64,000 nucleotides of DNA, taken from NCBI GenBank assembly GCA_017999835.1, contig JAGNLA010000002.1:99635-163634 (forward strand), read 5' to 3'. The position numbers and the translations under genes are program-made. Shown here one piece after another: positions 35,228-55,158 of the stretch; within the stretch, counting starts at the first letter, position 1, and the number at the start of each line of letters is the position of its first letter. The notes beneath the pieces were generated by a model, which did no database searches, was not told the origin of the DNA, and was given only the letters and a program-made list of their open reading frames with translations. The stretch comes from Caldisericia bacterium. GTDB taxonomy: Bacteria; Caldisericota; Caldisericia; JAAYUI01.

Positions 35228-35252
35228 GTCGCGGAAACCTCCTAATTAATAT

Positions 35253-37676: not shown

Positions 37677-37719
37677 AGTCTATTTTACGCCTGGCAACTC
37701 TCTTTTGCAAACGCAAAGG

Positions 37720-38976: not shown

Positions 38977-39157
38977 ATCATAATCCTGCGTGCATCAAGA
39001 TGCAATAAATTCGCTTTGCAAGTTCACCCCATTTTCAAAATCAATGAAAAACCGACTGAACCTGCAAAAGTATTTTAAAATATTGATTTGAGTGAGATTG
39101 CATGTTCCACCTGCTGACAAAACGCATCAAATTGGTAAAATATAAGAAGGGTACCAA

Positions 39158-40564: not shown

Positions 40565-42132
40565 AAAAAATCCTGGCTGTCTCTTTGATATTCATGACAC
40601 TCTTGTGTGGTTGGCAGCCAGAAACCCAATACCTGGTTGTTGTCGACAAACCCGCTGGTGAAGTGGTGCAAGTCATTGACGGCAAATATCACTGCATTGT
40701 CAGGGCATCGCAAATACCAGACGGAGCAACCATTAAATCAGCTCTGCCAACCTTTCAGGCTCTGGGCCAATTCCATGACTACGCAAAGGTAGGCAAGGAG
40801 CTTCGGGAACTTGAGGTAAAATATCCAGGAAGATGCTCTGTATACGACATTGGTGACTCCATCGAAGGCAGAGACATCCTCGCTATAAGATTTCAACCAT
40901 TAAAACCTGCTCCGGCCATACTTTTTGTGGGTGAACATCATGCCAGGGAATGGATGAGCGTTGAAGTACCAATGGCTCTGGCAAAGCTTTTTGCCGAGAA
41001 TCCAGAAAAAGACCAAAGAATTGAACAATGGCTTTCTCAATATGACATCTGGATCGTCCCAATGCTCAACCCCGACGGTCACCAGTACAGCATCGACAAG
41101 GACAGACTGTGGAGAAAAAACAGGAGACCCCTTGTTGCCGCTTTCGGCGTTGATCTCAACAGAAACTACGCTTACAAATGGAGCAACATGGGCGCCTCTG
41201 GCAACTTCGAGTCTGATATCTACCAGGGAGCAGATGAATTCTCGGAGCCCGAGACTCAGGCGATTCGAAATCTTGCCGACAACATCCCTGTCTTTGGTGC
41301 AATAACCTTTCACACTTATGGCAATATGATCATCCATTCCTGGAATTACGGTTATGAAAAAGCTCCGTATTTTGAAAAACTCAGAAATATCGGTCTTGCC
41401 ATGGCAAAACTCTCAGGCCCAAACAATGATTCAGAAAGCAAAAAAACAGACTATCTTTACGAGGTAATGGAAGGTTCGAAACTCTATCCTGCCTCGGGCG
41501 ACATGTGCGACTACCTCTACTCTACGTGGGGAGCACCAACATATACTTACGAAATGACTCGCTCGGCTGGTGGATTTGTCAACGATGAAAGCGAAATCCA
41601 ACCAACAGTTGACCTTGTTGTTCCAATGGCTCTTGAGTTCTTTGACGCCCTGCCAAAAGAGTTTTGCATGGTCTACGGCAAAGCTACCGATGGCAACGGC
41701 AACCCTGTAGCAACTGATCTTTTCTACAAAAACATCGAGTTTGCAATCAAGACAGACCCACAGACCGGAAGGTTTCATCATGTTCTCCCCAAAGGGCAAG
41801 GTTTTATCCGCTACAAAGTCAATGGCAAGGATACGATTTTGAAGGTGGATTTCCAAAAGGACACCAACATTTTGAACCTGATTGTAGGTAAATCCGACGT
41901 CTTTGACCTTTCAGGCGACGTTGTCGACAGCTCTGGCCAACCTTTCAAAGCAATCGTTTCTCTGTACGACCAGAAAAACACCGAAATCGCATTATTTAAA
42001 AACGTCTCTCATTTCTCGTTCAAAAGCGTCCCAAGCGGCAGCTATATCCTAAAGGTGTTAGGCATTGACCAAGTCAGGGAATACCAGATAACACTCTCCC
42101 GCAACCTTTCCATCACGGTCACAGCAAATTAA
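40561..42132 (+). CDS. Zinc carboxypeptidase (M14 family) lipoprotein with a C-terminal beta-sandwich domain.
   Basis: 'GEHHAREWMSVE' (HxxE zinc ligands), 'NPDGHQY', 'FHTYGNMIIHSW'. Confidence 0.8.
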   Translation: MKKILAVSLIFMTLLCGWQPETQYLVVVDKPAGEVVQVIDGKYHCIVRASQIPDGATIKSALPTFQALGQFHDYAKVGKELRELEVKYPGRCSVYDIGDSIEGRDILAIRFQPLKPAPAILFVGEHHAREWMSVEVPMALAKLFAENPEKDQRIEQWLSQYDIWIVPMLNPDGHQYSIDKDRLWRKNRRPLVAAFGVDLNRNYAYKWSNMGASGNFESDIYQGADEFSEPETQAIRNLADNIPVFGAITFHTYGNMIIHSWNYGYEKAPYFEKLRNIGLAMAKLSGPNNDSESKKTDYLYEVMEGSKLYPASGDMCDYLYSTWGAPTYTYEMTRSAGGFVNDESEIQPTVDLVVPMALEFFDALPKEFCMVYGKATDGNGNPVATDLFYKNIEFAIKTDPQTGRFHHVLPKGQGFIRYKVNGKDTILKVDFQKDTNILNLIVGKSDVFDLSGDVVDSSGQPFKAIVSLYDQKNTEIALFKNVSHFSFKSVPSGSYILKVLGIDQVREYQITLSRNLSITVTAN

Positions 42133-42195
42133 ACAATCAACACAATAAAACCTTTTGCAAACCACTGGAGTATTCTTTTTAAAAGGAGGCAATCC

Positions 42196-44733
42196 TTGAA
42201 CAAGATTGTTATGCTTGTGTGCGCCTTGCTGGCCATTCCAGCATTTGGCATTCATAATTCGTCATCAGAGGACTTGCCCAAACCCTGGCCGCAGTTTGCC
42301 TGTGACATTGCGCACTCGTCTGTGGCTTCGGACAAATGGGACTACAAAACGTACAAAACACCGGCATGGATACTGACAATGAAAGGCACAGACGGATTTT
42401 CTCGAAATCCAGTCATTGACAAAGGCTTGATGGTTATCGCCGATTCACAGCGGATTTATTGCATGGACGTGATCTCCGGTAAACAGAAATGGTCATCGGA
42501 CTTGGTCAACGGATGTGGCGGATCCTGCGCAATAATAGGCGATCGCGTGCTTGTTCCGACGTCAGGGAACATTCTTTCAATCGATTTGGCCACCGGCAAC
42601 GTTCAGGCTTCCCTGAGCATCGGATCAGCAACATCGCCAAGTTTTTATACAGATGACTACAGCAATACAGGCTTCTACTTCGGAGTCCCTGGGAAACCAG
42701 GCTACGCTGCCAAATACGACATAGATTCAGGCAGGAAAAGATGGGAGATGCAGACTGAATGGGGTTGCCCGGGTGCAATCGCCGTCAACACTGAGGAAGG
42801 CATCGCCGGTGTAACATCCCACTACAGTATCTATGCTCTCGATGAGATGTACGGCTCAATGGAAAGCCAGATTGAGACAGGAACCCAGTCTTTTGCAGCA
42901 ACGTCAGCCATCGACAGGTTCTGCGTCTACACCATGTCAGGCGGTGAAACATATTTGCTGCCAAAACTTTACGAAAAGTGGAACCCGATGATCATCGACT
43001 GTGGAGGATTCACCTTCTGGCCACCTGCCCAGTTTGGCAAAACACTCATCCAGGGCAATCAGGATGGCAGGCTGGTCAACTTCGATTTAACAGGCAAGGT
43101 CATCTGGGATGTCCAAATGCCAGGGCCGGTGACAAACGGTTCAACGGTCATGGACGGAACCGTGCTTGTGCCTGTCGGTGGCTCGGACAAAACAAAGTCA
43201 GGTGTCTACATCATGGATGCCAAAACCGGCTCGCAGATAGATTTCATCAACATTCAAGCCGAGTATGTCTTCCAGCCAGTCGTTGCCTGGCAGAGGATGT
43301 TTGTCGAGTATGGAAAGAACGAAAAATATACCAGCCGCTGGCTTGCCTGTTACGGCAAAAAACCAAGACCAGCCGACCAGGAACCAAAGCTGACAATCAA
43401 AGATTTTGTCATCACGACACAAGTGGCGTGGATGGGCGAAACACTCAAACAGGCAACACTGACAAACTCAGGCAAGGTCAAGCTCGACCTGCTGCTGACC
43501 GGCGACACGCTCATCACTCCAACCGTTGAAACAATGACGCTTGCGCCAGGTGCATCGGAAACACTGAGGATAAAAATTGTCGGCAAAAACAAACCCGGCA
43601 AATACACGCAAAAGATAAACTGCCACATCACCGATCCCGATTATGGCGACCAGTCGCTTGGCTACATAACGGCAATCATCACCATCACTGAGGCTGCTCC
43701 ACCTGAACCGCAGGATCAGCCGCCAAACCCGCCAAGAGAGCTGCAGGCAAGGGTGGTTTACGACTACATTCAACTGGAGTGGAAGCAACCTGACAAAGGA
43801 ACAGAACCTCTTGGGTACAACGTTTTCAGAACCGTCGGCACCGATGCGTTTCCAAAAGACCCGATAAACAAGTCCAAAATCACCGACCTGACATACGCCG
43901 ACAAGGAGGTCATTGCCGGGCTGCAATACACCTACAAAGTCGTTGCCCTTGGCAAGGCTGGATTGGTGTCCGACCCATCAAACACCGCAACAGCCGAAAT
44001 CCCAATAAAGCTGCTGGCTGTCAAGAACCTGAAAGCAGAAAAACAAGGCGAGGGCGTGCTTTTGACCTGGGAATCCGAGCAGCCTGTGACTTTTGTAATC
44101 GAGCGCAACGGCGACCAGGTAGGCATGACCTCAAATCTTCTGTTTTCTGACACAAACCCTCCCCAGGAAAAACTTATCTACAAGGTGTTTCCGAAGAAAG
44201 ACAACCAGTTTGGCCCTGAAGCTTTTGTCATCATTGACCTTTCTCCCCAAAAGCCACCTGACCCAGACCCAAATCCGGAACCCGAGCCTGAACCGCAACC
44301 AGAGCCGACGCCTGAAGAAAAAGAAGTCAAAATCGTTGTCGAGTTCACGGTTGGCAAGGAGATCGCCACAGTCAACGGAACGGCCAAGTTTTCAGGCGCA
44401 ATCCCGTTTATCAGTAACGGCAGGATGATGGTTCCATTCAGGTTTTTGGGTGAATCCATCGGCGCAAAGGTCAGCTACACATCAGACCCAAAAACCGGCA
44501 AAGTGTTGACTGTTACTTATGAGCTTGCCGGCAAAACCGTCCAGCTGGTCATGGGCTCAAAGACTGCAATTGTTGGCGAAGACAGCGTTGAGCTTGACGC
44601 CCCTCCACAGATTTCAGGTGGCAAAACCTATGTTCCTCTCAGGTTTGTCACGGCAGCGCTGGGTGGGACCGTGGACTGGAACGCTACAGAAAAGAAAGCA
44701 ACGATAACATATATCTCGAAGGTGAAGCCGTAG
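42196..44733 (+). CDS. Secreted PQQ-like beta-propeller / Fn3 protein with a Pro/Glu/Asp-rich linker and a C-terminal CAO-N domain.
   Basis: TTG start with RBS AAGGAGG. Linker 'PDPDPNPEPEPEPQPEPTPEE'. C-terminal 'NGRMMVPFRFLGESIGAKVSY...GGKTYVPLRFVTAALGGTVDW'. Confidence 0.55.
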   Translation: MNKIVMLVCALLAIPAFGIHNSSSEDLPKPWPQFACDIAHSSVASDKWDYKTYKTPAWILTMKGTDGFSRNPVIDKGLMVIADSQRIYCMDVISGKQKWSSDLVNGCGGSCAIIGDRVLVPTSGNILSIDLATGNVQASLSIGSATSPSFYTDDYSNTGFYFGVPGKPGYAAKYDIDSGRKRWEMQTEWGCPGAIAVNTEEGIAGVTSHYSIYALDEMYGSMESQIETGTQSFAATSAIDRFCVYTMSGGETYLLPKLYEKWNPMIIDCGGFTFWPPAQFGKTLIQGNQDGRLVNFDLTGKVIWDVQMPGPVTNGSTVMDGTVLVPVGGSDKTKSGVYIMDAKTGSQIDFINIQAEYVFQPVVAWQRMFVEYGKNEKYTSRWLACYGKKPRPADQEPKLTIKDFVITTQVAWMGETLKQATLTNSGKVKLDLLLTGDTLITPTVETMTLAPGASETLRIKIVGKNKPGKYTQKINCHITDPDYGDQSLGYITAIITITEAAPPEPQDQPPNPPRELQARVVYDYIQLEWKQPDKGTEPLGYNVFRTVGTDAFPKDPINKSKITDLTYADKEVIAGLQYTYKVVALGKAGLVSDPSNTATAEIPIKLLAVKNLKAEKQGEGVLLTWESEQPVTFVIERNGDQVGMTSNLLFSDTNPPQEKLIYKVFPKKDNQFGPEAFVIIDLSPQKPPDPDPNPEPEPEPQPEPTPEEKEVKIVVEFTVGKEIATVNGTAKFSGAIPFISNGRMMVPFRFLGESIGAKVSYTSDPKTGKVLTVTYELAGKTVQLVMGSKTAIVGEDSVELDAPPQISGGKTYVPLRFVTAALGGTVDWNATEKKATITYISKVKP

Positions 44734-44766
44734 AAGAACTGAAAAATTCTTCCTCTCGACGACGTG

Positions 44767-44836
44767 CCGGCGCTTGTGGACTTCCTCTACAAGCTCGAGA
44801 GGCACGACTACGGCCCATTCTGGCAAAAAAATATTC
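44767..44836 (+). repeat. Copy 2 of the 70-nt direct repeat, a non-coding fragment identical to the 3' end of CDS 3768..4970.
   Basis: 68/70 identity to 4891..4960. No start codon in frame. Sits between the stop of the propeller gene and the 3' end of the SIR2-like gene. Confidence 0.9.
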
Positions 44837-44865
44837 TGTTGTTCCAACAAACGAAATATGGTTAT

Positions 44866-46713
44866 TTACGATATAGGAAATGGAGGCGAAACAGCATACC
44901 AGTTCTGAGCTGATGTTTTTACTTGAATCGTATAATAACACGATGTTTGAGGATTTTTGATTCCAGAACTTTTATCAAATCTAATATCAAATTTTTCACA
45001 TTCTTTTATTGTCATTGGCAAAGTAATTGTTAATAAATTGCCATTAACCGTAGGTTTTATTTTTATCTTATACCATTTACTTATATTTCTAAAACCAATT
45101 CTTTTTAATAAACATTGTAGAAAGTTATGCTTGCTAACTGAGATCGTATTATTATCAATATTTTCTGGAATTGTAAAACCGATTGGGAATGCAATAGTAA
45201 TTGTATCTATATCATTAACCAATTTGATTTTATTATTCACTAAACGAATCTCTATGTCATCACTCATGCCAAGTTTATTATTCATAAATATAATAGGATT
45301 ATTTCTAATAAAATGAATTGTGTCTCTAATCTCGTATGGCTGAGATTTAAGCTTGTCCTCAGCGTTGTTAACTGCAATGCTTAAGTGATATAATCCACTT
45401 TTTGATGTGTTGATTAGGCGACAATTCGAATTGAAAACAAGACATAGTTTTCCTGATTGTTCTATCTTAAATCTATTTTGGAAAAAAATTCTAATTTTAT
45501 TATTATTTATGTATTCTATATTTTGCGCATGTTGAACTCCATAACCATAATAACTCCCAGGATACAAGATAATATTATCAGCAACTACCCTTTTGAAAAA
45601 TCTCAAATTTTTTAATAGAGATTTTTTTCTACCATGTTGAAAATCTATCTCAATCAATTTCAAATATTTATTTTTACTTTTACAGACATAGTTAAAAGCA
45701 ATAGCATATTCAGCACCAGATTGTAATGTCGCATTATGATTTACAGTAACATTTAATTCAGAAATAAAGATTTTTGGTATTTTTTGCTCATAATCGTCAT
45801 AGGAGACTTGAGCATTATCAGTTGATGAAAATTTCTCTGACTTTAATCTTTCATAGCTTTTCCATAATTGTTTAAAAAAATCATTACCATCTTGGACAAT
45901 TGGCTTAAAATCCAGCGAATCTAATAATTCTTTTGATTCTTCTTTAAATTCATACTTATCGATCCAATAATTGGTATATGCTTTATTATTAGTATATGAT
46001 TGTTTTATTATCTCTCTCAATCTAGAATCATATTTTGCTGACCAACCACAGATTATTACACCAAAATTATCGAAGATATCTGTCAATAATGAGTCGACAC
46101 TGGAATCAAAATTAGAAAGTTCTTGACTAGTATTTTTTAGTTCAGTATCCAGATAATCACCACATATTTTTATAAGAGATAAGTTTCTATTGGGCCAATC
46201 AGCAATAAAAGGTTTTTGATCAATAAAGCTATTCTTATCTATTATTCTTGAATAACCGATATCCTCTAGATGCAATTCCATTAATCTATCAAAGTTTGTT
46301 GTAATGATAATTTTTATTACATCTTCTTTTACTAATTTTACAATTACTTTATGTGCATTATCATCTTTGGAATTATATACGGTATCCATCTTGTGGAATG
46401 GTTCAAAGATTTCTTTTAAGTATAATCTTTTATCAGAATTTTTATTAAAATACCAGTCAATGATATCTGAATAATCAATATTTGTTTTACCTGTTTCAGT
46501 ATAATACCATTTCTCATAATCATTAAGATTCGAAAACTTTGATGAATTCATGCTGGCATACTTCTTTTTAATCAAATCCATTGATATCGAGTATGCCGTT
46601 GGTATTCCAGCAGATGTTGATAAACCAGAGCCAATTAATAGCACATATCCCCATTTATTGTTATCAAGCATACTTGCAATATTAGATATGGTTGAATCAT
46701 TTGAAGGTGACAT
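44866..46713 (-). CDS. SIR2-like (SIR2_2 / DHS-like NAD-binding) domain protein with an unrecognised ~360-aa C-terminal domain.
   Basis: N-terminal 'GSGLSTSAGIPT' (sirtuin GAGIS..GIP-like) and 'TTNFDRLME' (TTNYD-like). No Cys4 zinc ribbon. The gene is very AT-rich compared with its neighbours. Confidence 0.7.
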   Translation of the reverse strand: MSPSNDSTISNIASMLDNNKWGYVLLIGSGLSTSAGIPTAYSISMDLIKKKYASMNSSKFSNLNDYEKWYYTETGKTNIDYSDIIDWYFNKNSDKRLYLKEIFEPFHKMDTVYNSKDDNAHKVIVKLVKEDVIKIIITTNFDRLMELHLEDIGYSRIIDKNSFIDQKPFIADWPNRNLSLIKICGDYLDTELKNTSQELSNFDSSVDSLLTDIFDNFGVIICGWSAKYDSRLREIIKQSYTNNKAYTNYWIDKYEFKEESKELLDSLDFKPIVQDGNDFFKQLWKSYERLKSEKFSSTDNAQVSYDDYEQKIPKIFISELNVTVNHNATLQSGAEYAIAFNYVCKSKNKYLKLIEIDFQHGRKKSLLKNLRFFKRVVADNIILYPGSYYGYGVQHAQNIEYINNNKIRIFFQNRFKIEQSGKLCLVFNSNCRLINTSKSGLYHLSIAVNNAEDKLKSQPYEIRDTIHFIRNNPIIFMNNKLGMSDDIEIRLVNNKIKLVNDIDTITIAFPIGFTIPENIDNNTISVSKHNFLQCLLKRIGFRNISKWYKIKIKPTVNGNLLTITLPMTIKECEKFDIRFDKSSGIKNPQTSCYYTIQVKTSAQNWYAVSPPFPIS

Positions 46714-46804
46714 AATAAGATTATATATACTTTTTCAAGTAATAAAATACATTTATGTATACCATTCTGGAAAAATCCGAACTTTTCCGTTATCCTATCC
46801 CACC

Positions 46805-48445
46805 ATGGAACCAAACACACAAAAACCAAGCCAGCGCGTGGCGATATCGGCAAAGCTTGCCCAGGCGCTGCAAAAGATGGATGTAGAATTCACGCCCGAC
46901 GTCATGCGTCCGGACTCTCCCGACCACGGCGACTGGTCCAGCAATTGCGCCATGGCGCTTGCGCGCCAGATGAAGAAGGCGCCGAGGATGGTTGCCGAGG
47001 AAATAATAAAAAACCTTGACCAGACGATGTTTGAGAAGGTTGAGATTGTTGGCCCGGGGTTCATGAACTTTTTCCTCAAGCCAGAGGTTGTCACTAAATT
47101 TGTAAAGGACGCCTGCGACGAAGGTTTCGGCAGGTCGGACTTTGGCAAGGGCACAAAGGTCATGGTGGAGTTTGTCTCGGCAAACCCAACGGGGCCGGTA
47201 ACGGTTGCAAACGGTCGCGGCGCACCTCTGGGCGACTCGATTTCCAGATTGCTTGAGTGGGTCGGTTACAGCGTTCACCGTGAGTTCTACGTCAATGACC
47301 GAGGCTCCAAAGTCACAAACCTTGGACGCTCGCTTGAACAAAGGTACAGACAGGCGCGAGGTTTGGATTGGTCGATGCCTGAAGAAGGGTATCCAGGAGA
47401 ATATCTTCTCGATATCGCAAAGGAAATGGTTCCTGACTTTGGCAACACCCCTTTTGACATGCCAGACTCCGAAAGAGTAGAGTTTTTTGGCAGGCAGGCT
47501 GTCACCAGAATGATCGCCTGGCAGGAAAAGGTATTTGAAAAATTCGGCATAAAGTTTGACCTTTGGTTCTCAGAGGCCAAGATGGCGGCAGAAGGCAAAA
47601 TCGAACAAACTCTTGAAAGGCTGAAAAAAACCGGCTGCATCTACGAAGCCGAGGGTGCAACATGGTTGCGTTCAACGGACTTTGGCGATGACAAGGATTT
47701 TGTCGTGGTCAAATCAACAGGTGACGCCACCTACACGCTTGGCGACATAGCCTACCACATTGGCAAGTTTGACCGTGGCTTTGACCTTGCAATCGACCTG
47801 ATGGGTGCCGACCACCATGGCCACGTTGGTCCGATGCACGCAGGTCTTCAGGCTTTGGGCATCGACCACAACAGGCTTGAGTTTGTCCTCTACCAGCTGG
47901 TGCACCTTTTCAGAGGTGAGGTTCAGGTCAAGATGAGCAAGTCCAGCGGCGAGTTTGTCACGCTCGAGGAGCTGCTTGATGAAGTTGGCGTGGATGCTGC
48001 CAGGTATTTCTACCTCATGCGTTCCAGCGACACCCATCTGAACTTTGACCTTGACCTGGCAAAGTCACAAACAATGGACAATCCGGTCTATTATGTACAG
48101 TATGCCCATGTCAGGTGCTGCGCGATCATGGATGATGAAAGGGCAAAAGACATCGATTTGTCCAAAGCATCGCCGTTTGAGCACCAGCTTGAGAAGGCGC
48201 TTGCCATGGAGCTTGTGACTTTCCCGGACGAGGTGAAGGCGTCAGCGCTTGCCAGAACCCCTCACAGAATTGCCGCATATGCGGAGAAAATTGCGTCAGC
48301 ATTCCATTCCTTCTACTACGAGTGCCACGTGCTAAACGAAGAGCCGGCCATAAAAGCCAGACGCATGCTGCTTGTGAAAGCCACAAGAAACGTCCTGAAA
48401 GGCTGTCTTGACATTTTGGGAGTGAGCGCGCCAAACAGGATGTAA
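46805..48445 (+). CDS. argS: Arginyl-tRNA synthetase with a non-canonical HIGH region.
   Basis: 'VEFVSANPTGPVTVANGRGAPLGD', 'YVNDRGSKV' and 'KMSKS' are present. 547 aa from the ATG at 46805. The upstream ORF extension was rejected because it overlaps the SIR2 gene start. Confidence 0.85.
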   Translation: MEPNTQKPSQRVAISAKLAQALQKMDVEFTPDVMRPDSPDHGDWSSNCAMALARQMKKAPRMVAEEIIKNLDQTMFEKVEIVGPGFMNFFLKPEVVTKFVKDACDEGFGRSDFGKGTKVMVEFVSANPTGPVTVANGRGAPLGDSISRLLEWVGYSVHREFYVNDRGSKVTNLGRSLEQRYRQARGLDWSMPEEGYPGEYLLDIAKEMVPDFGNTPFDMPDSERVEFFGRQAVTRMIAWQEKVFEKFGIKFDLWFSEAKMAAEGKIEQTLERLKKTGCIYEAEGATWLRSTDFGDDKDFVVVKSTGDATYTLGDIAYHIGKFDRGFDLAIDLMGADHHGHVGPMHAGLQALGIDHNRLEFVLYQLVHLFRGEVQVKMSKSSGEFVTLEELLDEVGVDAARYFYLMRSSDTHLNFDLDLAKSQTMDNPVYYVQYAHVRCCAIMDDERAKDIDLSKASPFEHQLEKALAMELVTFPDEVKASALARTPHRIAAYAEKIASAFHSFYYECHVLNEEPAIKARRMLLVKATRNVLKGCLDILGVSAPNRM

Positions 48446-48466: not shown

Positions 48467-48498
48467 AAAAAGATGCTCTCAAAAAGAGCATCTTTTTT
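48467..48498 (+). terminator. Rho-independent terminator of argS.
   Basis: aaaa-agatgctct-caaaa-agagcatct-ttttt. Confidence 0.85.
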
Positions 48499-48586
48499 GT
48501 TATCTATTGCCATTGTCAGTTAAATTAAATACTATCTGGTCATCAATTTGGGAGTCAAGCACCCCACAAAAAAAGGATACAAAGAC

Positions 48587-49615
48587 ATGAACATTGAATT
48601 TAGAAGGCTTGGGTACGACGAGATAATAAACAACTGCTTTGCCCAGTTCAAAGCATTCAACGATGCCTTCAGTAAAGACATTTATCCTGATGAAAACCCG
48701 GACACCGAAGACAGGCTCAAGGAGATAATTCACGAACGTGACTGCGATTTTTACAGGTTCACTGCCTTCGACGGTGACAAGATAGTTGGCTCGATATCCT
48801 CAGGCAAGCTCAAGCCGGAGCATCCAGAATACAGCTCTAGAAAGCATGTCAGCTGGCTTGAAGGTTTTGTCCTTCCACAGTACAGAAGGCGAGGGATTGG
48901 AAAGCAGCTCGTTAGGCAAGCACTCGAAATGGCTTCCCAAAACGGTGTCGAGGTCGTCAAACCCTACACCTATTGCGATGAAGGCTTTGCGTTCATCGAA
49001 AGCCTTGGCGGAAAAGCGGTTTCGGCTCAGTCTGACAGGACACTGGAGCTTGACAAACTCGACTGGTCTCTGGTTGAATCCTGGCTCAAAATCCCTATTG
49101 GAGACCTGAAACTGGAATATTTTTCAGAATTCTCAGATGAGCTTATGGAAAGGCTCATTGATGTTTCATTTGCCTCGACGCAGGAAGTGTCTGCCATGGA
49201 CAGCTGCGAGGTGCCACCAACCCTTGATGGTGAAAGGCATTCGCTGAGGGAATTCTCAGATTACATTAAAAATACTGGTACGAGATACCATTGTCTGCTT
49301 TTGACCGACGAAGCCGGAAACATCCTTGGTTACACTGAAGGAACCATTCCCCCGGAAGACCCTGATGTTTTCAGGCAAGCCATGACAATGGTCTGGAAAC
49401 ACCATCGTGGCAAGGGTTATGGCAAGTTCCTCAAAGCAGCGATGCTCGACTTTATCCGCAAAAACCTGCCAAACATAAAAAAACAGGTGACAGGCAACAA
49501 CGACCTTAATGCCCCGATGCTTGCCATCAACCTAAAGCTGGGCTTCCAGCTTGTCAGGCAGTGGAAGGTCTACAGAGTTGAGGTGGCAAAAGCGCTGGAC
49601 AATCTCAAAATGTAA
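48587..49615 (+). CDS. Double-GNAT acyl-CoA N-acyltransferase. Paralog 1 of 4.
   Basis: 343 aa. The N-terminal half has 'VLPQYRRRGIGKQLV'. The C-terminal half has 'VWKHHRGKGYGKFLKAAML...TGNNDLNAPMLAINLKLGF'. RBS aaaaagga. Confidence 0.7.
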   Translation: MNIEFRRLGYDEIINNCFAQFKAFNDAFSKDIYPDENPDTEDRLKEIIHERDCDFYRFTAFDGDKIVGSISSGKLKPEHPEYSSRKHVSWLEGFVLPQYRRRGIGKQLVRQALEMASQNGVEVVKPYTYCDEGFAFIESLGGKAVSAQSDRTLELDKLDWSLVESWLKIPIGDLKLEYFSEFSDELMERLIDVSFASTQEVSAMDSCEVPPTLDGERHSLREFSDYIKNTGTRYHCLLLTDEAGNILGYTEGTIPPEDPDVFRQAMTMVWKHHRGKGYGKFLKAAMLDFIRKNLPNIKKQVTGNNDLNAPMLAINLKLGFQLVRQWKVYRVEVAKALDNLKM

Positions 49616-49711
49616 ATTCCAAAGCTATTGCCGACAAAAGTTAATTCCAATATCATCCAAAAACAAGAAACACGTGGGAGGTCCACGACCACAGACAAAG
49701 GAAATATTGAT

Positions 49712-50755
49712 ATGAACATAGAAATTAGAAAAGTAGAAAAAGAAGAACTTCTGGGAGATTTGTATCAGACCTACAGAATCCTTGCAATCAGGGACTTTGC
49801 CGACATGTACCCGGAGGAATCTACATTGAATGATGAGATCATCAGAACAAGACTCGAAAACAAAAATTATGATGAAAGCAATTATTTTGCTTTTTTGGAT
49901 GGGCAAATGATTGGCTATTCCGATATTAGCAGACCCAGCAGAAGCAATCCTGCTTATGAACAAAACAAGAACAGAATTGGTTTTTGGGCTTTTATTTTGC
50001 CAGAGTATAGAAAACAGGGGCTAGGTGTAAAGCTACTTACGATGGCACTTGAAGATCCACTGCGTGAGTATATCCAAAGGCTCAGAACTTCAGCGTACAG
50101 CGCCGATGGTCGAAGGTTCGTCGAGTCGCTCGGTGGCAAGGTTGTAGAAAAAAGTTCCACACGAGAGCTTCTTGTCAAAGACATTGACTGGGAGCTGGTA
50201 GAATCATGGAAAAACATGAGTTTCTCTCCAGACAAAAAACCGGTTATAGAGTTTCATAGTAAAATTGACTGGCAAATTGTTGAGCAATTCCTGGACCTGT
50301 CTTTTGAAATAAACCTGGAACTCAGCCAGATGGACAATCGCGAGTTTATTCACACCAGAGAGTCTGAGGAGCATGACTGGAAAGAAATGCTGGAGTACTG
50401 GGGTAAAACTGGCTTTGAAAATGAATGTTTCATTCTGAAAGATTCTGCTGGTTCAACCATTGGCTACACAATGTGCATTTTCTCATCCAGAGATCCAGAC
50501 ACTGTCGGTCAAAGTATGACTGCTGTCTGGAAGCACCTCCGAGGCAACGGTTATGGACAGCTCCTGAAAGCTTTGATGCTTGAAAATATTAGGACAAACC
50601 ATCCGCAGATAGTAAAAATCAACACCAGCAACAACGATCTCAACGACCCAATGGTGGGTATAAACAGAAAGCTTGGGTTTGTAGAAAAAAGTCTCTGGTG
50701 TTCGTATATTGTCGACTACAGTGAGGCAATTGAAAAACTGAGGAGCAAAAAATGA
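49712..50755 (+). CDS. Double-GNAT acyl-CoA N-acyltransferase. Paralog 2 of 4.
   Basis: 'MNIEIRKVEKEELLG', 'ILPEYRKQGLGVKLL', 'VWKHLRGNGYGQLLKALML...TSNNDLNDPMVGINRKLGF'. Confidence 0.7.
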   Translation: MNIEIRKVEKEELLGDLYQTYRILAIRDFADMYPEESTLNDEIIRTRLENKNYDESNYFAFLDGQMIGYSDISRPSRSNPAYEQNKNRIGFWAFILPEYRKQGLGVKLLTMALEDPLREYIQRLRTSAYSADGRRFVESLGGKVVEKSSTRELLVKDIDWELVESWKNMSFSPDKKPVIEFHSKIDWQIVEQFLDLSFEINLELSQMDNREFIHTRESEEHDWKEMLEYWGKTGFENECFILKDSAGSTIGYTMCIFSSRDPDTVGQSMTAVWKHLRGNGYGQLLKALMLENIRTNHPQIVKINTSNNDLNDPMVGINRKLGFVEKSLWCSYIVDYSEAIEKLRSKK

Positions 50756-51783
50756 ACATAGAAATTAGGAAAGTTGACAAGGAAGAGTTGCTGGGTGAAT
50801 ATTTTGACGCATACTGCAAAATTGTCAGACTCCAACGAGCCCAGTTTGCTCCTGACAATCCACCACCATCAAACGAGCGAATCCGAATTGGACTGGAGGA
50901 AGCGAGCGAGGACTGGCAGGTAATACGGTATATGGGATTTGCAGGAATAGATGCAATTGGATTGCTGGAATTTGGTTCTTTGAAACCTGAGTCACCCGAT
51001 TATTCCAAAAACAAGGAGATTGGCTGGCTGGACATTTTTATTGTCGACTCACACCGAAGGCAAGGAATAGGCACGAAATTTGCCAAGCAGGCAATCTTGA
51101 CTTTGAAGGAGTTAGGAGTCACAAAAATAGATGCAGGTTCAGTTTCTCAAAATGGTCAGCGATTTTTGGAACAACTTGGGGCAACTCTTAAATCAAAGTT
51201 TTCTGACAGAAATCTTGATTTGAACACGATGAACTGGAGCATTGCCGATGACTGGCTTGAAATCAGGAACAAGCTGCCAGATAAATGGTCAATTGAGTTT
51301 CATGTCGAGATTTCTGACAATTTCATCGAACAGGTAATTGATGTAAGTCATGACATTGTCTGTGAGTTAAGGGCAATGAGTAGTTACGAGTTTGTATCAA
51401 CACGCGAGTCAGAAATTAAGGACTGGAAAGAATTTGCCAGATGGGTTGAAAAGACTGGCGAAAAATATTCATGTTTCCTCATAAAAGATGATTCCGGCAA
51501 AGTCGTTGGGTACACTGAAGGCGGTTTCCGCAATGACAACCCAGCTCAGTTCCAACAATATGTCACTGGCGTAACAAAATCCAAAAGAGGTTTGGGACTT
51601 GGAAAACTACTCAAGGCGTTGATGCTTGATTATATCAGACGAGAACACCCCGAAGTCCAAAAAATCTCAACCGGCAGCAACGATTTGAACGACCCAATGC
51701 ATGGCATCAATAACATCCTTGGCTTCACACCCGGTGTTACCCGTTCAAACTACCGCATCTTAGTTGAAGAAACCATGAAATAA
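50752..51783 (+). CDS. Double-GNAT acyl-CoA N-acyltransferase. Paralog 3 of 4.
   Basis: 'MNIEIRKVDKEELLG', 'IVDSHRRQGIGTKFA', 'TKSKRGLGLGKLLKALML...TGSNDLNDPMHGINNILGF'. ATGA overlap with paralog 2. Confidence 0.7.
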   Translation: MNIEIRKVDKEELLGEYFDAYCKIVRLQRAQFAPDNPPPSNERIRIGLEEASEDWQVIRYMGFAGIDAIGLLEFGSLKPESPDYSKNKEIGWLDIFIVDSHRRQGIGTKFAKQAILTLKELGVTKIDAGSVSQNGQRFLEQLGATLKSKFSDRNLDLNTMNWSIADDWLEIRNKLPDKWSIEFHVEISDNFIEQVIDVSHDIVCELRAMSSYEFVSTRESEIKDWKEFARWVEKTGEKYSCFLIKDDSGKVVGYTEGGFRNDNPAQFQQYVTGVTKSKRGLGLGKLLKALMLDYIRREHPEVQKISTGSNDLNDPMHGINNILGFTPGVTRSNYRILVEETMK

Positions 51784-51793
51784 TGGAGTAAAG

Positions 51794-52792
51794 ATGAGTC
51801 AGGGAATTTCAATCAGACAAATTGAAAAACATGACCTGCTTGGTGAAAGCCTCAAGGCGTTTCTTGCATTCTTCAAAACCATGAACCTTGAAACATATCC
51901 AGAAGAAAAACCCTGGAGCGACAACCAGATAACCGACATCATAAAACAGAGCAGTGACAAGATGTTTCGGGTGTGCGCTCTTGATGGCGACAAGATGGTT
52001 GCCTATTCATCGCTTGACTGGAGCTTGTGCAAGCCTGGATTTGGCAGGAGTTTCATTAACGTCCTGCCAGATTACAGAAGACAAGGTCTTGGCTCAGATA
52101 TTTTTAGCCAGGTTCTCGGCCATACCCGAAACATCGGTCTTTCAAAACTGATATGCCAGACACATCATCAGTCCGGCGAGGAGTTCATGACCAGCCGGGG
52201 TGGAAAGATTGTTGCCAAAGAGTCCACCCGGACGCTTTTGATGACCAGTGTCGACTGGAGCCTTGTCGACAACTGGATTGCCATAGGGAAAATCCGCAAT
52301 CCATCGCTGAAACTTATCTTTTCAAGGCATGTTGACGACTCGATGATCCCAGGTTTGGCAACAGTCTCGCTTGAGATTGAAAGGGATTTGATGTCTCTAA
52401 ATGCAAATCAAATAGACATTTCTTACGAGTTTGAGGTTGAGGAATGGAAACGAAGGCAAGCTGAAGCGACAAGCCCAAACCAGTCAAGAATATTTCTATT
52501 TGTCCATGACGGCTGTGGCGAGATTGTCGGATACTCCAACGTTTCCATTCAAAACAGCGACCCCACCTTTGCCAGACAAGGCATGACCGCTGTCAAAAAG
52601 GATTGCCGCGGTGCAGGCATAGGAAAGCTCCTCAAGGCAGCCATGCTTCGATTCATCAAGGATAATCATCCTGAAATTGTAAAGGTTTCCACAGGCAACA
52701 ACGACTTGAACGCGCCAATCGTTGCCATCAACGAAAAGCTTGGTTTTACCAAAGGAGTTTGCTGGACAAACTTTGAACTTGAAGTAAGTTAA
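51794..52792 (+). CDS. Double-GNAT acyl-CoA N-acyltransferase. Paralog 4 of 4.
   Basis: 'VLPDYRRQGLGSDIF', 'VKKDCRGAGIGKLLKAAML...TGNNDLNAPIVAINEKLGF'. Confidence 0.7.
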   Translation: MSQGISIRQIEKHDLLGESLKAFLAFFKTMNLETYPEEKPWSDNQITDIIKQSSDKMFRVCALDGDKMVAYSSLDWSLCKPGFGRSFINVLPDYRRQGLGSDIFSQVLGHTRNIGLSKLICQTHHQSGEEFMTSRGGKIVAKESTRTLLMTSVDWSLVDNWIAIGKIRNPSLKLIFSRHVDDSMIPGLATVSLEIERDLMSLNANQIDISYEFEVEEWKRRQAEATSPNQSRIFLFVHDGCGEIVGYSNVSIQNSDPTFARQGMTAVKKDCRGAGIGKLLKAAMLRFIKDNHPEIVKVSTGNNDLNAPIVAINEKLGFTKGVCWTNFELEVS

Positions 52793-52857
52793 TAAGTGAA
52801 CCTGAACCCTGCCAAGGCTTGTATTCCTTTCAGGATTGGTTGTTTGCCTGGAGGAAT

Positions 52858-55158
52858 ATGAAAAAGTTTATTATCACATTGGTTTTGGGGTTGGTAATGC
52901 TTTCGTCAAGTGTTGGCATCAGAACAGATTCGAGCGTCCAGCTGAGCCCTTTAATAAAAACAAACCCTTTAAAAACCAGTTTTAATCACTATATACTAGT
53001 CAAAGATGGTGACTGCGACACCTTTTCAACACTGAAAAGGCCAAATTCTTTTCCTCTAAACTCTCGAATCATCGACACCGATTTCAACATACTCAAACAA
53101 ACACCATATCTTGACGGGTTGTATTTCTTTGACGGACAAAACTTTGCGGAAAGGTTTTATTTTCCAACCTTCTCAGCACCAAGTTCGCCATCATCGCTTT
53201 TGACCGTTGATGGGCAACATTACTATATCCCGGGAGGCTGGGACACCTATCCTTTGGAAAACATCTGCTCATACCGTTCGGGCAAAAAGGTTGAGTTTTG
53301 CAGGCTTGACACTGGAGAGATGTTTGCAACGTTTGACTTTGCCGAGACAAAAAACCCACCGTATCTTCTGGAAAACGGGAAGCTTGCCGTTATGTTTGAC
53401 AAAACAAACATCAAGCTGCTTGACCTGACAAACCAAAAGGTGCTGTACCAAACAAAATCCATTCAAAACTGGGATGCTGGCAACGGTGTCTTTGCTACGT
53501 CAAGTGCGATTTTCAACTACCGAACAGGTGAAAGCTTTGATTTGTCCAATCTGGGTCTGGACATTATATTTACACATATCCTGATAAAGAAGGATTATGT
53601 CGAGTTCTATGTTGACGTTGACCGCAACTCGAAAATGTCTGACAACCCAAGGATTGTTCGGGTTGGTTTTGATGGCAGGATAATTGAGACGATCCAGATG
53701 TCGTTTTTGCAAAAAGGCCAGGATTTCAGAATTCTTCAGTCAAAAGGCGACATAGTTCTTGTAAATCTTTGGAAATTACAATACGGGACAGAAGCTTCAA
53801 TTTCAGCCTACAGTCTGTCAACAGGCCAGATGTTGTGGGAGCAGGCTTTTGGCAATAATCTTGATACATACGACGAAGTGTTCATTTCAAACGAGAAAGA
53901 ACCGAAAGTGATTCTCCATGTTTGCCACCAGCTGGTCAAACTGGATTTAAATTCTGGAAATATCGAAAAAAGCATTAATTGGATTTACCAGCAAGTTTAC
54001 GATCCAAGGCTTGCTTTTATCAAAGGCGATCTTGTTTATGCAATGCAGGAGAGCACCAACTGTGTATTTGACAAGTATTCAATTGAAAAGATGGATTCAC
54101 AGGGCAACAAGGCTCCTGTAGAAATCCCTTTCCAAGTGCACGAGGCACTCATCGATTCCTTTGAAGACAAAGTTTATCTGGTAAGCAGAAAAATGATGGC
54201 TGACATGTCAGCTCTGATTGTTGACACTGCCATCATTGACCCCAAAACAGGAGTTGCCACAAAAAGCATTTCGTTTGTGGCAGAGGGAGTTGATGCCAAA
54301 GCAGTTACTCTGGATGGAAAATTCCTTTTTGTTTTTGGAGCGATAAAACAAACGGTTTATGACCTTTCAACCGGAAAAAAGGCAGTACTCGACGATACAA
54401 AATCAAGTCCTTGCGGCAGCATAAGCAGCAAGGTGGCAGGGGACAAGATTTATGTCCTTGCAAACTTTGCAGACAAAAAAGATGTTTTGACGGTGTTCGA
54501 CACAAATCTTGTCCAGCTGTCAAAAACCTGGGGGCTGGGAGATGCTGCAAAAATACTTTTTGCCAACGACAAGTATGTGATTTTTGGCAAGAGTAGTCCC
54601 GAAGGCATGGTGGTTTCAGACTGCAACGGCAACTGGTGGGACTCAAGCAGCTCATGCGTCATGCTTGACGGCGATTTCGCTGTCATCAAGAAGAACGGAA
54701 CTGCAAACGACTTTTTCAGGTTGAACCTTGAAACCAGGCAGGTTGAAGTCCTCGGTCAAAAGAACGTTTGGTCGTATCCGATCACCACATCTTTAGGTAA
54801 CACCTTTTTTGGTGGACGCAACACCTATGACAGGGACTTAAACTGGCTCCAGACCGACATGTACATCTCCAGAATTTTCCCGTCAACTGACAAGATTTAT
54901 GCACAACCATCATACTTTTTCGGCTCGGTTGTGGAGTTGAAACCTGCGCCATGCTATACCCTAAAAAGAGTTAGCAACAACTCATTTACAATTCAGAACA
55001 GCCGTGGCGATGAGCTTGCAGACAGCCTTTATGGCTGCGCCTATGCTTTTACCACCCCAAACAACACCATCGACCGACCAACAAAACTTGAGGGAGTGCA
55101 AAGATTTGAAAACCTCAAACCAGAGCAGTCGGCAACCTTGAAGTTTGATCTTGGTTAA
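52858..55158 (+). CDS. Large secreted hypothetical protein (766 aa).
   Basis: Signal peptide 'MKKFIITLVLGLVMLSSSVG'. RBS GGAGG. No recognisable domain. Confidence 0.5.
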   Translation: MKKFIITLVLGLVMLSSSVGIRTDSSVQLSPLIKTNPLKTSFNHYILVKDGDCDTFSTLKRPNSFPLNSRIIDTDFNILKQTPYLDGLYFFDGQNFAERFYFPTFSAPSSPSSLLTVDGQHYYIPGGWDTYPLENICSYRSGKKVEFCRLDTGEMFATFDFAETKNPPYLLENGKLAVMFDKTNIKLLDLTNQKVLYQTKSIQNWDAGNGVFATSSAIFNYRTGESFDLSNLGLDIIFTHILIKKDYVEFYVDVDRNSKMSDNPRIVRVGFDGRIIETIQMSFLQKGQDFRILQSKGDIVLVNLWKLQYGTEASISAYSLSTGQMLWEQAFGNNLDTYDEVFISNEKEPKVILHVCHQLVKLDLNSGNIEKSINWIYQQVYDPRLAFIKGDLVYAMQESTNCVFDKYSIEKMDSQGNKAPVEIPFQVHEALIDSFEDKVYLVSRKMMADMSALIVDTAIIDPKTGVATKSISFVAEGVDAKAVTLDGKFLFVFGAIKQTVYDLSTGKKAVLDDTKSSPCGSISSKVAGDKIYVLANFADKKDVLTVFDTNLVQLSKTWGLGDAAKILFANDKYVIFGKSSPEGMVVSDCNGNWWDSSSSCVMLDGDFAVIKKNGTANDFFRLNLETRQVEVLGQKNVWSYPITTSLGNTFFGGRNTYDRDLNWLQTDMYISRIFPSTDKIYAQPSYFFGSVVELKPAPCYTLKRVSNNSFTIQNSRGDELADSLYGCAYAFTTPNNTIDRPTKLEGVQRFENLKPEQSATLKFDLG

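What the first reader, a model, noticed from the sequence alone, without database searches (positions are those of the whole stretch)
46805..48445. Arginyl-tRNA synthetase whose HIGH catalytic motif is replaced by TVAN while KMSKS is intact
What the sequence shows. The Rossmann-fold signature region reads 'SANPTGPVTVANGRGAPLGD', where bacterial ArgRS normally has 'SANPTGPLH(V/I)GHGRGA'. Both histidines are substituted (H to T, H to N). The rest of the protein is a convincing full-length ArgRS and includes a canonical 'KMSKS'. There is no recognisable Shine-Dalgarno ahead of the ATG, although most other genes in the window have one. The gene is divergent from the horizontally acquired SIR2-like gene and directly upstream of the four-gene GNAT array. 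Established knowledge. The HIGH histidines contact ATP phosphates in class I aaRSs and are almost invariant. Inference. This may be a divergent but active enzyme, a catalytically impaired paralog with a second argS elsewhere, or a protein recruited to another role.
Basis: partly seen in the sequence, partly recalled or inferred. Interest (0 to 1): 0.5.

Follow-up and report, generated by a model that had tools for sequence, protein, structure and literature searches.

The report
Housekeeping ArgRS with lineage-wide TVAN signature
This is most likely the ordinary, selection-maintained arginyl-tRNA synthetase of a Caldisericota bacterium; its unusual "TVAN" in place of "HIGH" is shared by every relative found, and in this ArgRS subfamily the two histidines are often missing.

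Summary
Window 46805-48445 (+) encodes a 546-aa ArgRS reading SANPTGPVTVANGRGAPLGD, with KMSKS further on.

The interpretation that this signals a crippled or repurposed paralog is not supported:
- **Shared by all relatives.** All 22 relatives at 62-95% identity, from independent assemblies, carry (V/I)TVAN. They include two roughly 2.2-Mb single-contig Caldisericia genomes.
- **Held by selection.** The four motif codons vary synonymously, and gene-wide dN/dS is 0.03-0.06.
- **Still a recognisable ArgRS.** It passes the NCBIfam argS equivalog cut-off (406 vs 262 bits). It keeps 136 of 155 family-conserved columns and models as a full ArgRS (pLDDT 94.5).
- **Housekeeping position.** In more distant Caldisericia the gene sits at a conserved BON-argS position next to purine-synthesis or gatB/dnaE genes. 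A 41%-identical positional orthologue has TLGN.
- **The premise fails.** Of the 149 nearest 50%-identity cluster representatives, only 57 have H..H and 56 have neither histidine. Bacterial TrpRS uses TIGN as its HIGH equivalent.

One modest new point concerns the "canonical" KMSKS. It is derived from the family's (K/R)MSKR and is coupled to a Q-to-K change in the active-site DxGxQ loop.

I could not scan a whole genome for a second argS.

Interest is low.

The parts
46805..48445 (+). argS coding sequence: 546 aa plus stop, a full-length arginyl-tRNA synthetase
   Evidence: Translation. Pfam Arg_tRNA_synt_N, tRNA-synt_1d and DALR_1. TIGR00456 argS equivalog 406.5 bits against a cut-off of 261.65. 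AF2 model pLDDT 94.5, and the top 20 PDB fold matches are all ArgRS.
46844..47077 (+). N-terminal Add1 domain, residues 14-91 (binds the tRNA D-loop, A20)
   Evidence: Pfam PF03485, E = 2.5e-23. G85 and N88 of 'GPGFMNF' are invariant in the 47-sequence alignment, and P84 (90% in the recomputed A2.fa counts) and F86 are nearly so; M87 is variable.
47201..47212 (+). T133-V134-A135-N136, the codons that take the place of H-x-G-H
   Evidence: Aligned to HIGH of 3FNR, 2ZUE, 1BS2 and 1IQ0. Invariant as amino acids in 12 DNA sequences, with synonymous codon changes at all four positions: ACG/ACT/ACC, GTT/GTG, GCA/GCC, AAC/AAT.
47300..47311 (+). R166-G167-S168-K169 of the N-D-x-G-x-Q active-site loop. 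K169 replaces a Gln that is otherwise nearly invariant; R166 replaces Ala (Trp in E. coli)
   Evidence: Clade-specific residues. Q is kept in 254 of 270 family sequences. Lys appears only where the last KMSK-x residue is not Arg. R166 aligns with W and K169 with Q of the D-W-G-x-Q loop in the yeast and N. gonorrhoeae chains. My mapping of these positions to E. coli W162 and Q165 is by inference, not from an alignment shown. W162 is an active-site residue whose mutation lowers activity (PMC3956977).
47930..47944 (+). K376-M-S-K-S380, the mobile KMSKS loop. S380 replaces the family's Arg
48095..48442 (+). DALR anticodon-binding domain, residues 431-546
   Evidence: Pfam PF05746, E = 1.4e-32, matching the profile over its full length.
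46768..46804 (+). Short SD-less proximal leader, conserved with the 86-87% relatives. It includes TATCCT 8 nt before the ATG, so a very short-leader or leaderless transcript is possible (inference)
   Evidence: Alignment A1. Similarity to L005/L006 starts about 40-55 nt upstream of the ATG. Further upstream lies the low-GC SIR2 insertion. No Rfam family, including T-box, reaches its gathering score anywhere in the window or L005.
48467..48497 (+). Intrinsic terminator-like hairpin (13-pair stem followed by a T run) between argS and the first GNAT gene

Best explanation
This is the housekeeping arginyl-tRNA synthetase of a Caldisericota bacterium, and it charges tRNA-Arg in the normal way.

Its class I 'HIGH' signature has been T-x-x-N throughout the phylum: TLGN in a deep branch, (V/I)TVAN in this clade. 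The proposed mechanism is inferred, not shown:
- The Thr hydroxyl and Asn carboxamide hydrogen-bond to the ATP phosphates in place of the two imidazoles, as in the TIGN signature of bacterial TrpRS.
- The second lysine of the KMSKS loop stabilises the leaving pyrophosphate.
- In this lineage the positive charge normally supplied by the Arg of (K/R)MSKR has moved to Lys169 in the neighbouring N-D-x-G-x-Q loop of the active site.

Arginine binding, tRNA D-loop binding and anticodon binding are unchanged.

The SIR2 gene and the GNAT array are neighbours only, not functional partners.
For: **Shown**
1. The motif is lineage-wide. All 11 protein clusters at 62-95% identity have (V/I)TVAN plus KMSKS. 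So do 11 further loci from independent assemblies: the near-identical L002, L004 and L008 duplicate L001/L003 and are not counted separately. They include the single-contig MAG JAXGMQ010000001.1 (2.17 Mb), the chromosome OY771555.1 (2.23 Mb), and the Logan contig L014.
2. A Caldisericia ArgRS only 41% identical (the P0210 cluster, which includes MCD6168687.1) has TLGN, the same Q-to-K change, and KMSKT. It lies directly after a homologous BON gene, as do the nine loci at 62-64% (seven if near-identical copies are collapsed). That makes it a positional orthologue rather than a paralog.
3. Selection is strong. Synonymous variation occurs at all four motif codons while the amino acids stay invariant. 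Gene-wide dN/dS is 0.03-0.06.
4. Family membership holds. TIGR00456 scores 406.5 against a cut-off of 261.65. The clade keeps 136 of 155 columns that are at least 90% conserved in non-TVAN relatives. E122, S125, P128, G130, R138, N164, D165, Y310, D314 and H337 are invariant and M377, S378 and K379 nearly invariant across 47 diverse sequences, this one included.
5. The AF2 model has pLDDT 94.5 and pTM 0.92. The best PDB fold matches are all ArgRS, with 3FNR at TM 0.92.
6. The histidines are dispensable in this subfamily. Among 149 nearest 50%-cluster representatives the counts are HxxH 57, one His 34, and neither 56. His-less motifs are interleaved with HxGH ones on a neighbour-joining tree, which implies repeated losses. 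Cultured Thermaerobacter species carry GVVN.
7. TrpRS uses TIGN as 'equal to HIGH' (PMC10201369).
8. Q169K and R380(S/T/H) co-occur, and only together, among 270 family sequences. The loop carrying residues 166-169 is part of the active site in E. coli ArgRS (PMC3956977; alignment).

**Context**
- A terminator follows argS.
- The 62-64% TVAN clade has no GNAT genes next to argS.
- No hit to the SIR2 gene was found in the closest syntenic relatives L005 and L006.
Against: - No enzyme assay exists for any T-x-x-N ArgRS, so activity is inferred.
'Only argS' therefore rests on conserved synteny, strong purifying selection and the general rarity of argS duplicates.
- The roles proposed for T133, N136 and K169 are by analogy and covariation. 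No coordinates were available to measure distances in the model.
- The covariation rests on at most three lineages, two of which are Caldisericia and may represent a single event.
Confidence: 0.88

Rival explanations
1. It is a catalytically impaired ArgRS paralog (a pseudo-synthetase) that binds tRNA-Arg or arginine for a regulatory or other purpose. A second, canonical argS elsewhere in the genome does the charging.
For: - Both HIGH histidines are replaced.
- Several other near-invariant family residues are also changed: Q169K, R380S, A141P, A436V.
- A whole-genome search for a second argS could not be run.
- ArgS-derived non-catalytic proteins do exist; NCBIfam has NF045898 NrtL.
Against: - The gene is the positional orthologue at the BON-argS site across Caldisericia, from 41% to 64% identity, next to pur, gatB and dnaE genes.
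- dN/dS is 0.03-0.06 over the whole gene, catalytic domain included.
- All arginine-binding and KMSK residues are kept.
- The score is well above the argS equivalog cut-off and far below the NrtL cut-off (121 against 340).
- No second ArgRS-like sequence occurs in the 64-kb window or in any of the roughly 20-kb loci searched, L001-L013 (locus database).
- His-less ArgRS are too common (56 of 149 representatives) for all of them to be dead paralogs.
- These genomes are small, about 2.2 Mb.
Confidence: 0.06
2. The ArgRS has been recruited to supply Arg-tRNA to, or otherwise work with, the adjacent tandem-GNAT proteins. This would resemble the aaRS plus GNAT-fold aminoacyl-tRNA transferase systems (Fem, MprF/VlmA, arginyl- and L/F-transferases).
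For: - Arrays of one to six tandem-GNAT genes lie directly downstream of argS in the window, L014, L005 and L006.
- Pairings of aaRS with GNAT-fold ligases are documented (PMC2922099).
Against: - The GNAT proteins match acetyl-CoA-type families (Acetyltransf_1/7/10). No hit to FemAB, ATE, Leu_Phe_trans or LPG_synthase_C appears at E <= 0.01.
- Both halves carry an R-x-x-G-x-G motif ('RRRGIGKQ' and 'HHRGKGYGK'; read from the translations). From my knowledge this is typical of acetyl-CoA binding.
- Their best solved relative is the tandem-GNAT ORF14 of the clavulanic-acid cluster (2WPW, E = 2e-14).
- A 13-pair terminator separates argS from the array.
- The association is absent from the nine 62-64% loci and from the TLGN loci, which already have T-x-x-N. 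It therefore cannot explain the motif.
Confidence: 0.03
3. TVAN is a sequencing or assembly artefact of this one contig.
For: None beyond the rarity of the motif in textbook alignments.
Against: The same amino acids, encoded by different codons, appear in 11 further loci from independent assemblies and in 11 protein clusters drawn from NCBI, JGI, ENA and Logan.
Confidence: 0.01

Closest known systems
Bacterial KMSK-type arginyl-tRNA synthetase (TIGR00456; closest solved structure C. jejuni ArgRS, PDB 3FNR)
   Same: - It has the same three-part architecture: Add1, Rossmann catalytic domain and DALR.
- The blocks 'EFVSANPTGP', 'TYxxxDIAYH' and 'GADHHGH', and an MSK loop, are the same.
- It lacks the 'HIGH-loop lysine' that, as I recall it, marks KMSK-less ArgRS (Sekine et al. 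2001, cited in PMC8318970).
- Sequence match to 3FNR is E = 6e-80, and the fold match has TM 0.92.
   Different: - HIGH is TVAN.
- The Gln of N-D-x-G-x-Q is Lys.
- The Arg that ends (K/R)MSKR is Ser.
- A141P and A436V are also clade-specific.
Bacterial tryptophanyl-tRNA synthetase with the TIGN signature
   Same: It is an active class I synthetase in which Thr and Asn occupy the two His positions of HIGH, alongside a canonical KMSKS (PMC10201369).
   Different: - It is a different synthetase family, a dimeric class Ic enzyme. The resemblance is convergent and limited to the signature.
- The third position is Gly in TrpRS (TIGN) but Ala here.
- No test was made here that the side chains act in the same way.
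Other His-less ArgRS of the same subfamily (GVVN in Thermaerobacter, NVVS in Limnochordales, AVVQ/QIGN in Armatimonadota, NVVN/NIVS in many metagenomic clusters)
   Same: They have lost both HIGH histidines in proteins that are otherwise full ArgRS and are annotated as arginine--tRNA ligase.
   Different: They keep Gln169 and the terminal Arg of MSKR. They use other replacement residues, and on the tree they appear as separate losses.
NrtL, ArgS-related anticodon-binding protein (NCBIfam NF045898)
   Same: It shares the DALR-type C-terminal domain.
   Different: NrtL is a 327-position model that matches only the C-terminal part of this protein. The score is 121 bits against a cut-off of 340, and the window protein has a complete catalytic domain, so it is not a member.

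Membership tests
Arginyl-tRNA synthetase (argS, TIGR00456 equivalog) | Whole-protein score above the curated equivalog cut-off | tested here: met
   406.5 bits against a cut-off of 261.65, covering residues 14-546.
Arginyl-tRNA synthetase (argS, TIGR00456 equivalog) | Three-domain architecture: N-terminal Add1 domain, class I Rossmann catalytic domain, DALR anticodon-binding domain | tested here: met
   PF03485, PF00750 and PF05746. AF2 model pLDDT 94.5. The top 20 PDB fold hits are all ArgRS.
Arginyl-tRNA synthetase (argS, TIGR00456 equivalog) | Class I HIGH signature with two histidines | tested here: not met
   The motif is TVAN. The feature is not actually defining for this subfamily: 56 of 149 nearest cluster representatives lack both His and 34 lack one.
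Arginyl-tRNA synthetase (argS, TIGR00456 equivalog) | KMSK-type mobile loop, or a compensating HIGH-loop lysine | tested here: met
   K376-M-S-K379-S380. M377, S378 and K379 are nearly invariant across 47 diverse relatives.
Arginyl-tRNA synthetase (argS, TIGR00456 equivalog) | Arginine-binding residues, counterparts of E. coli D118, Y313 and D317 | tested here: met
   E122, Y310 and D314 are invariant columns of the 47-sequence alignment. The roles of the E. coli residues come from PMC3956977. The mapping to E. coli numbering is my inference from the aligned motifs; no E. coli alignment was shown.
Arginyl-tRNA synthetase (argS, TIGR00456 equivalog) | It is the genome's (sole) argS at a conserved housekeeping position | tested here: inconclusive
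   BON-argS synteny next to pur or gatB/dnaE genes holds across Caldisericia. No second copy is present in the window or in the loci searched, L001-L013. A whole-genome scan was not possible.
Arginyl-tRNA synthetase (argS, TIGR00456 equivalog) | tRNA-dependent arginine activation and aminoacylation of tRNA-Arg | not testable with these tools
   Needs an enzyme assay or complementation.
aaRS plus GNAT-fold aminoacyl-tRNA transferase systems (Fem, MprF/VlmA, ATE/Aat) | A neighbouring GNAT-fold protein belongs to an aminoacyl-tRNA-dependent transferase family | tested here: not met
   The GNAT genes hit acetyl-CoA-type Pfam families and PDB 2WPW (tandem-GNAT ORF14). There is no FemAB, ATE, Leu_Phe_trans or LPG_synthase_C hit at E <= 0.01.
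aaRS plus GNAT-fold aminoacyl-tRNA transferase systems (Fem, MprF/VlmA, ATE/Aat) | Conserved co-occurrence or co-transcription of the aaRS paralog with the transferase | tested here: not met
   A terminator lies between the genes. The GNAT genes are absent beside argS in the 62-64% TVAN loci and in the TLGN loci.
NrtL (ArgS-related anticodon-binding protein, NF045898) | Score above the model cut-off, and a protein limited to the anticodon-binding part | tested here: not met
   121.5 bits against a cut-off of 340. The protein has a full catalytic domain.

The most novel reading that the evidence does not exclude
Caldisericota ArgRS may have a rewired class I transition-state site. Both HIGH histidines are replaced by Thr and Asn. 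The positive charge that the family normally places at the end of the (K/R)MSKR loop is moved to Lys169 in the N-D-x-G-x-Q loop, a coupled Q-to-K and R-to-S/T swap. More broadly, KMSK-type bacterial ArgRS would tolerate repeated loss of the HIGH histidines far more than textbooks imply. I found no paper describing this in the searched library.
Probability: 0.35. Interest if true: 0.45.

Novelty: new member of a known kind. Interest (0 to 1): 0.22.

Why it matters
For genome annotation the message is a caution. A missing HIGH motif in an ArgRS of this subfamily should not be read as a pseudo-synthetase, because more than a third of the nearest cluster representatives lack both histidines.

For enzymologists there is a small, testable point. 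ArgRS with a KMSK loop seems able to do without the HIGH histidines. The Caldisericota version shows a coupled charge relocation (Q169K with R380S/T) that could be probed with double-mutant cycles.

Nothing here points to a new system or a new function.

Tried and rejected
1. **Sequencing error.** Rejected, because the same motif appears with different codons in independent assemblies.
2. **Regulatory RNA, such as a T-box, upstream of argS.** No Rfam family other than three tRNAs reaches its gathering score in the window or L005.
3. **Functional link to the tandem-GNAT array.** Rejected for the following reasons:
   - The GNATs are of the acetyl-CoA type.
   - A terminator intervenes.
   - The association is limited to the 86-95% subgroup and is absent elsewhere.
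4. **Link to the SIR2 gene.** The gene has 27% GC, gives a strong hit to the PADLOC candidate defence family PDC-S65, and gave no hit in the two closest syntenic relatives, L005 and L006. It is an insertion next to argS.
5. **NrtL-type ArgS relative.** Below cut-off.
6. **P0210 (TLGN) as a possible second Caldisericia argS paralog.**
   - It sits at the same BON-argS position.
   - It comes from assemblies other than those carrying TVAN, so it is read as the orthologue of a deeper branch.
7. **Whole-genome test for a second argS.** Not possible.
8. **Literature searches for a description of His-less ArgRS.** Nothing specific was found.
9. **Measuring distances between K169, the KMSKS loop and the TVAN residues in the AF2 model.** Not possible, because coordinates are not exposed.
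Full report
**1. The observation**

Window 46805-48445 (+) is an ORF of 546 codons plus a stop. It reads '...VEFVSANPTGPVTVANGRGAPLGD...' and later '...VQVKMSKSSGEF...'.
- Pfam finds the three ArgRS domains: Arg_tRNA_synt_N, tRNA-synt_1d and DALR_1.
- In alignments with solved ArgRS structures, T133 and N136 fall exactly on the two histidines of HIGH. C. jejuni 3FNR has 'PLHIGHARGA' against 'PVTVANGRGA' here. P. horikoshii, yeast and T. thermophilus align the same way.

**2. The organism and the relatives**

- A protein search returns 11 clusters at 62-95% identity and then a sharp drop to 49% or less.
- A scan of one genome per GTDB species finds nine loci. All are labelled Caldisericales, Caldisericia or Caldisericota, apart from one 'uncultured bacterium'. 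They include a 2.17-Mb single-contig MAG and a 2.23-Mb chromosome.
- Every one of these sequences has (V/I)TVAN and KMSKS.
- In a library of 1.84 billion 50%-identity representatives, the whole TVAN group collapses into a single cluster.

**3. Selection**

- Across 12 DNA sequences the four motif codons change synonymously: Thr ACG/ACT/ACC, Val GTT/GTG, Ala GCA/GCC, Asn AAC/AAT. The amino acids never change.
- Nei-Gojobori dN/dS is 0.038 against the 95% relative, 0.058-0.061 against the 86-87% relatives, and 0.032 between those two.

This is the pattern of an essential enzyme, not of a decaying or freshly repurposed paralog.

**4. Family membership and the rest of the active site**

- The protein scores 406.5 bits on the NCBIfam argS equivalog TIGR00456, whose cut-off is 261.65. 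It is far below the cut-off of the ArgS-related NrtL model.
- Of 155 alignment columns that are at least 90% conserved in the 109 non-TVAN relatives, the clade keeps 136.
- In a 47-sequence alignment spanning 35-95% identity, E122, S125, P128, G130, R138, N164, D165, Y310, D314, Y317, K321, R324 and H337 are invariant. M377, S378 and K379 are nearly so.
- From the conserved motifs, I map E122, Y310 and D314 to E. coli D118, Y313 and D317, which bind arginine (PMC3956977). No E. coli alignment was displayed.
- An AlphaFold2 model is very confident (pLDDT 94.5, pTM 0.92). TVAN lies at the start of the helix that follows strand 1, as HIGH does. The 20 best PDB fold matches are all ArgRS.

**5. 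The premise that the histidines are almost invariant**

It fails for this ArgRS subfamily.
- In the first 120 hits the HIGH position reads HMGN in many Desulfotomaculia and Clostridia. It reads GVVN in cultured Thermaerobacter species, NVVS in Limnochordales, and AVVQ or QIGN in Armatimonadota. IVVQ, TLGN and others also occur, alongside HLGH (Bacillus type) and HIGH or HVGH.
- Among the 149 nearest 50%-identity representatives, 57 have H..H, 12 have only the first His, 22 have only the last, and 56 have neither.
- On a neighbour-joining tree the His-less types are interleaved with canonical ones. AVVQ sits next to HVGH, and TLGN next to HLGH. This implies repeated independent losses.
[quoted passage not shown] T...N is therefore a proven working solution in a class I active site.
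- From memory, the PROSITE class I signature PS00178 also allows T at the first and N at the last position. I did not check this here.

**6. Genomic position**

- In all nine loci at 62-64% identity (seven distinct, since L002, L004 and L008 are near-identical copies), argS follows a BON-domain gene directly. Six of these loci (L001-L003, L008, L011, L013) have enough upstream DNA to show that the BON gene itself follows purA-purB-purC-purS-purQ. In L001 and L002 SmpB and RNase PH are nearby, and in L003 gyrA.
- A more distant ArgRS cluster (P0210, 41% identical) includes a protein that NCBI names 'arginine--tRNA ligase [Caldisericia bacterium]'. It reads TLGN and sits directly after a homologous BON gene, followed by gatB and dnaE.
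- This is a positional orthologue, so T-x-x-N is old and phylum-deep, with TVAN as a later G-to-A version.
- In the window's own subgroup (window, L014, L005, L006) the gene has left the BON/pur neighbourhood. The window contains no BON or pur homologue.
- In L005 and L006 three genes lie just upstream of argS. In the window these genes sit inverted at 34118-38976. The window carries extra genes at 39158-44733 plus the SIR2 gene in between.

**7. The neighbours**

- The SIR2-like gene (44866-46713, minus strand) lies in a 27-35% GC patch within a genome region of about 46% GC.
  - It scores 240 bits on the PADLOC candidate defence family PDC-S65.
  - It gave no hit in L005 or L006.
- The four tandem-GNAT genes (48548-52792) lie behind a 13-pair terminator hairpin.
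  - They hit acetyl-CoA-type GNAT families.
  - They resemble the tandem-GNAT ORF14 of the clavulanic-acid cluster (2WPW).
  - Their copy number varies: one in L006, two in L005, four here and six in L014.
  - They are absent beside argS in the older TVAN and TLGN lineages, so they cannot explain the motif.

**8. The Shine-Dalgarno point**

- There is indeed no purine-rich stretch before the ATG. However, only about half of the window's larger ORFs have a clear one.
- The last 40-55 nt before the ATG are conserved with L005 and L006, including 'CTTTTCCG(T/C)TATCCT' ending 7-8 nt before the ATG. A very short-leader or leaderless transcript is a reasonable guess, but it is untested.
- No known RNA family lies upstream.

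**9. A modest new detail**

The KMSKS that looked reassuringly canonical is actually derived.
- Across the 270 family sequences collected, the loop is (K/R/x)MSKR and the final Arg is essentially invariant. The Gln of the N-D-x-G-x-Q loop after strand 2 is equally invariant.
- The only sequences that lose the Arg are the only ones that turn the Gln into Lys: the TVAN clade (K169, S380), the TLGN Caldisericia cluster (K, T), and one unplaced HVGN protein, P0191 (K, H).
- R166 and K169 align with the Trp and Gln of the D-W-G-x-Q loop in the yeast and N. gonorrhoeae chains. By inference these correspond to E. coli W162 and Q165.
- In E. coli, W162's backbone holds the arginine-binding Tyr313 in the absence of substrate, and the W162A mutation lowers activity (PMC3956977). 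The loop is therefore in the active site.

I read this as a relocation of one positive charge within the ATP/pyrophosphate site. This is an inference from covariation in at most three lineages, and I could not measure distances in the model.

**10. What remains open**

- I could not search a complete genome of this lineage for a second argS.
- There is none in the 64-kb window or in any of the roughly 20-kb loci L001-L013 (locus database).
- The case for a sole, active argS rests on four things: positional orthology, the strength of selection, small genome size (about 2.2 Mb), and the sheer frequency of His-less ArgRS.
- I put that case at about 0.88.

**11. Verdict**

The feature is real and correctly described, but it is an ordinary housekeeping argS carrying a lineage-wide signature variant. 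It is a new member of a known kind, and interest is low. The only mildly surprising results are two. The HIGH histidines are often missing in KMSK-type bacterial ArgRS. And the Caldisericota enzymes show a coupled Q-to-K and R-to-S/T swap.

Noticed in passing
window 44866-46713 (-): A 615-aa SIR2_2-domain protein lies in a 27-35% GC patch. It hits the PADLOC candidate defence family PDC-S65 strongly (240 bits) and gave no hit in the closest syntenic relatives, L005 and L006. It looks like a recently inserted single-gene defence island, ending about 40-90 nt upstream of argS.
   Followed up: partly
window 48548-52792 (+); L014 1915-8303; L005 7281-9382; L006 5062-6159: An array of paralogous tandem-GNAT proteins of about 340 aa, each with two GNAT halves. 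Copy number changes fast between close relatives: 1, 2, 4 and 6. Window copies are about 27-41% identical to the copies in L005/L006. The best solved relative is ORF14 of the clavulanic-acid cluster, 2WPW. Substrate unknown.
   Followed up: partly
window 52819-55158 (+); L005 9615-14154; L006 6303-10843: A 779-aa protein with no Pfam, NCBIfam or PADLOC hit follows the GNAT array. It is present as two diverged tandem copies in L005 and L006.
   Followed up: no
window 34118-46765 compared with L005 436-5581: A rearrangement relative to the 86-87% relatives. The three genes that lie directly upstream of argS in L005 and L006 are inverted in the window (34118-38976, minus strand). They are separated from argS by three extra genes (39158-44733) and the SIR2 gene.
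   Followed up: partly
window 42196-44733 (+): An 845-aa predicted surface protein. It has a PQQ/BamB-like beta-propeller, a Pro/Glu-rich 'PDPDPNPEPEPEPQPEP' linker and C-terminal copper-amine-oxidase N-terminal-type domains. It has a strong SD and a TTG start.
   Followed up: no
proteins P0012-P0269 (relatives, not in the window): In the ArgRS subfamily nearest to this gene the HIGH position is highly variable. Of 149 representatives at 50% identity, 57 have H..H and 56 have no histidine at either position (NVVN, NVVS, NIVS, GVVN, QIGN, AVVQ and others). On a tree these look like several independent losses. I found no paper describing this.
   Followed up: partly
window 47309-47311 and 47942-47944; P0210; P0191: Coupled substitutions: the Gln of N-D-x-G-x-Q becomes Lys only where the final Arg of (K/R)MSKR is lost (to S, T or H), and vice versa, among 270 family sequences.
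   Followed up: partly
L003 2257-4716 (-): A different Caldisericia MAG carries an 819-aa SIR2_2 plus nSTAND NTPase gene just upstream of the pur-BON-argS block. This is a second, unrelated-looking defence-type SIR2 gene close to argS in the phylum, and is probably coincidence.
   Followed up: no
L016 3982-8646: In the TLGN-type Caldisericia MAG, the dnaE (DNA polymerase III alpha) gene downstream of argS-gatB carries an intein with a LAGLIDADG homing-endonuclease domain.
   Followed up: no
window 5126-5198 (-), 6407-6481 (-), 8457-8541 (+): Three tRNA genes: Thr(CGT), Gly(TCC) and Tyr(GTA). There is no tRNA-Arg in the window.
   Followed up: no
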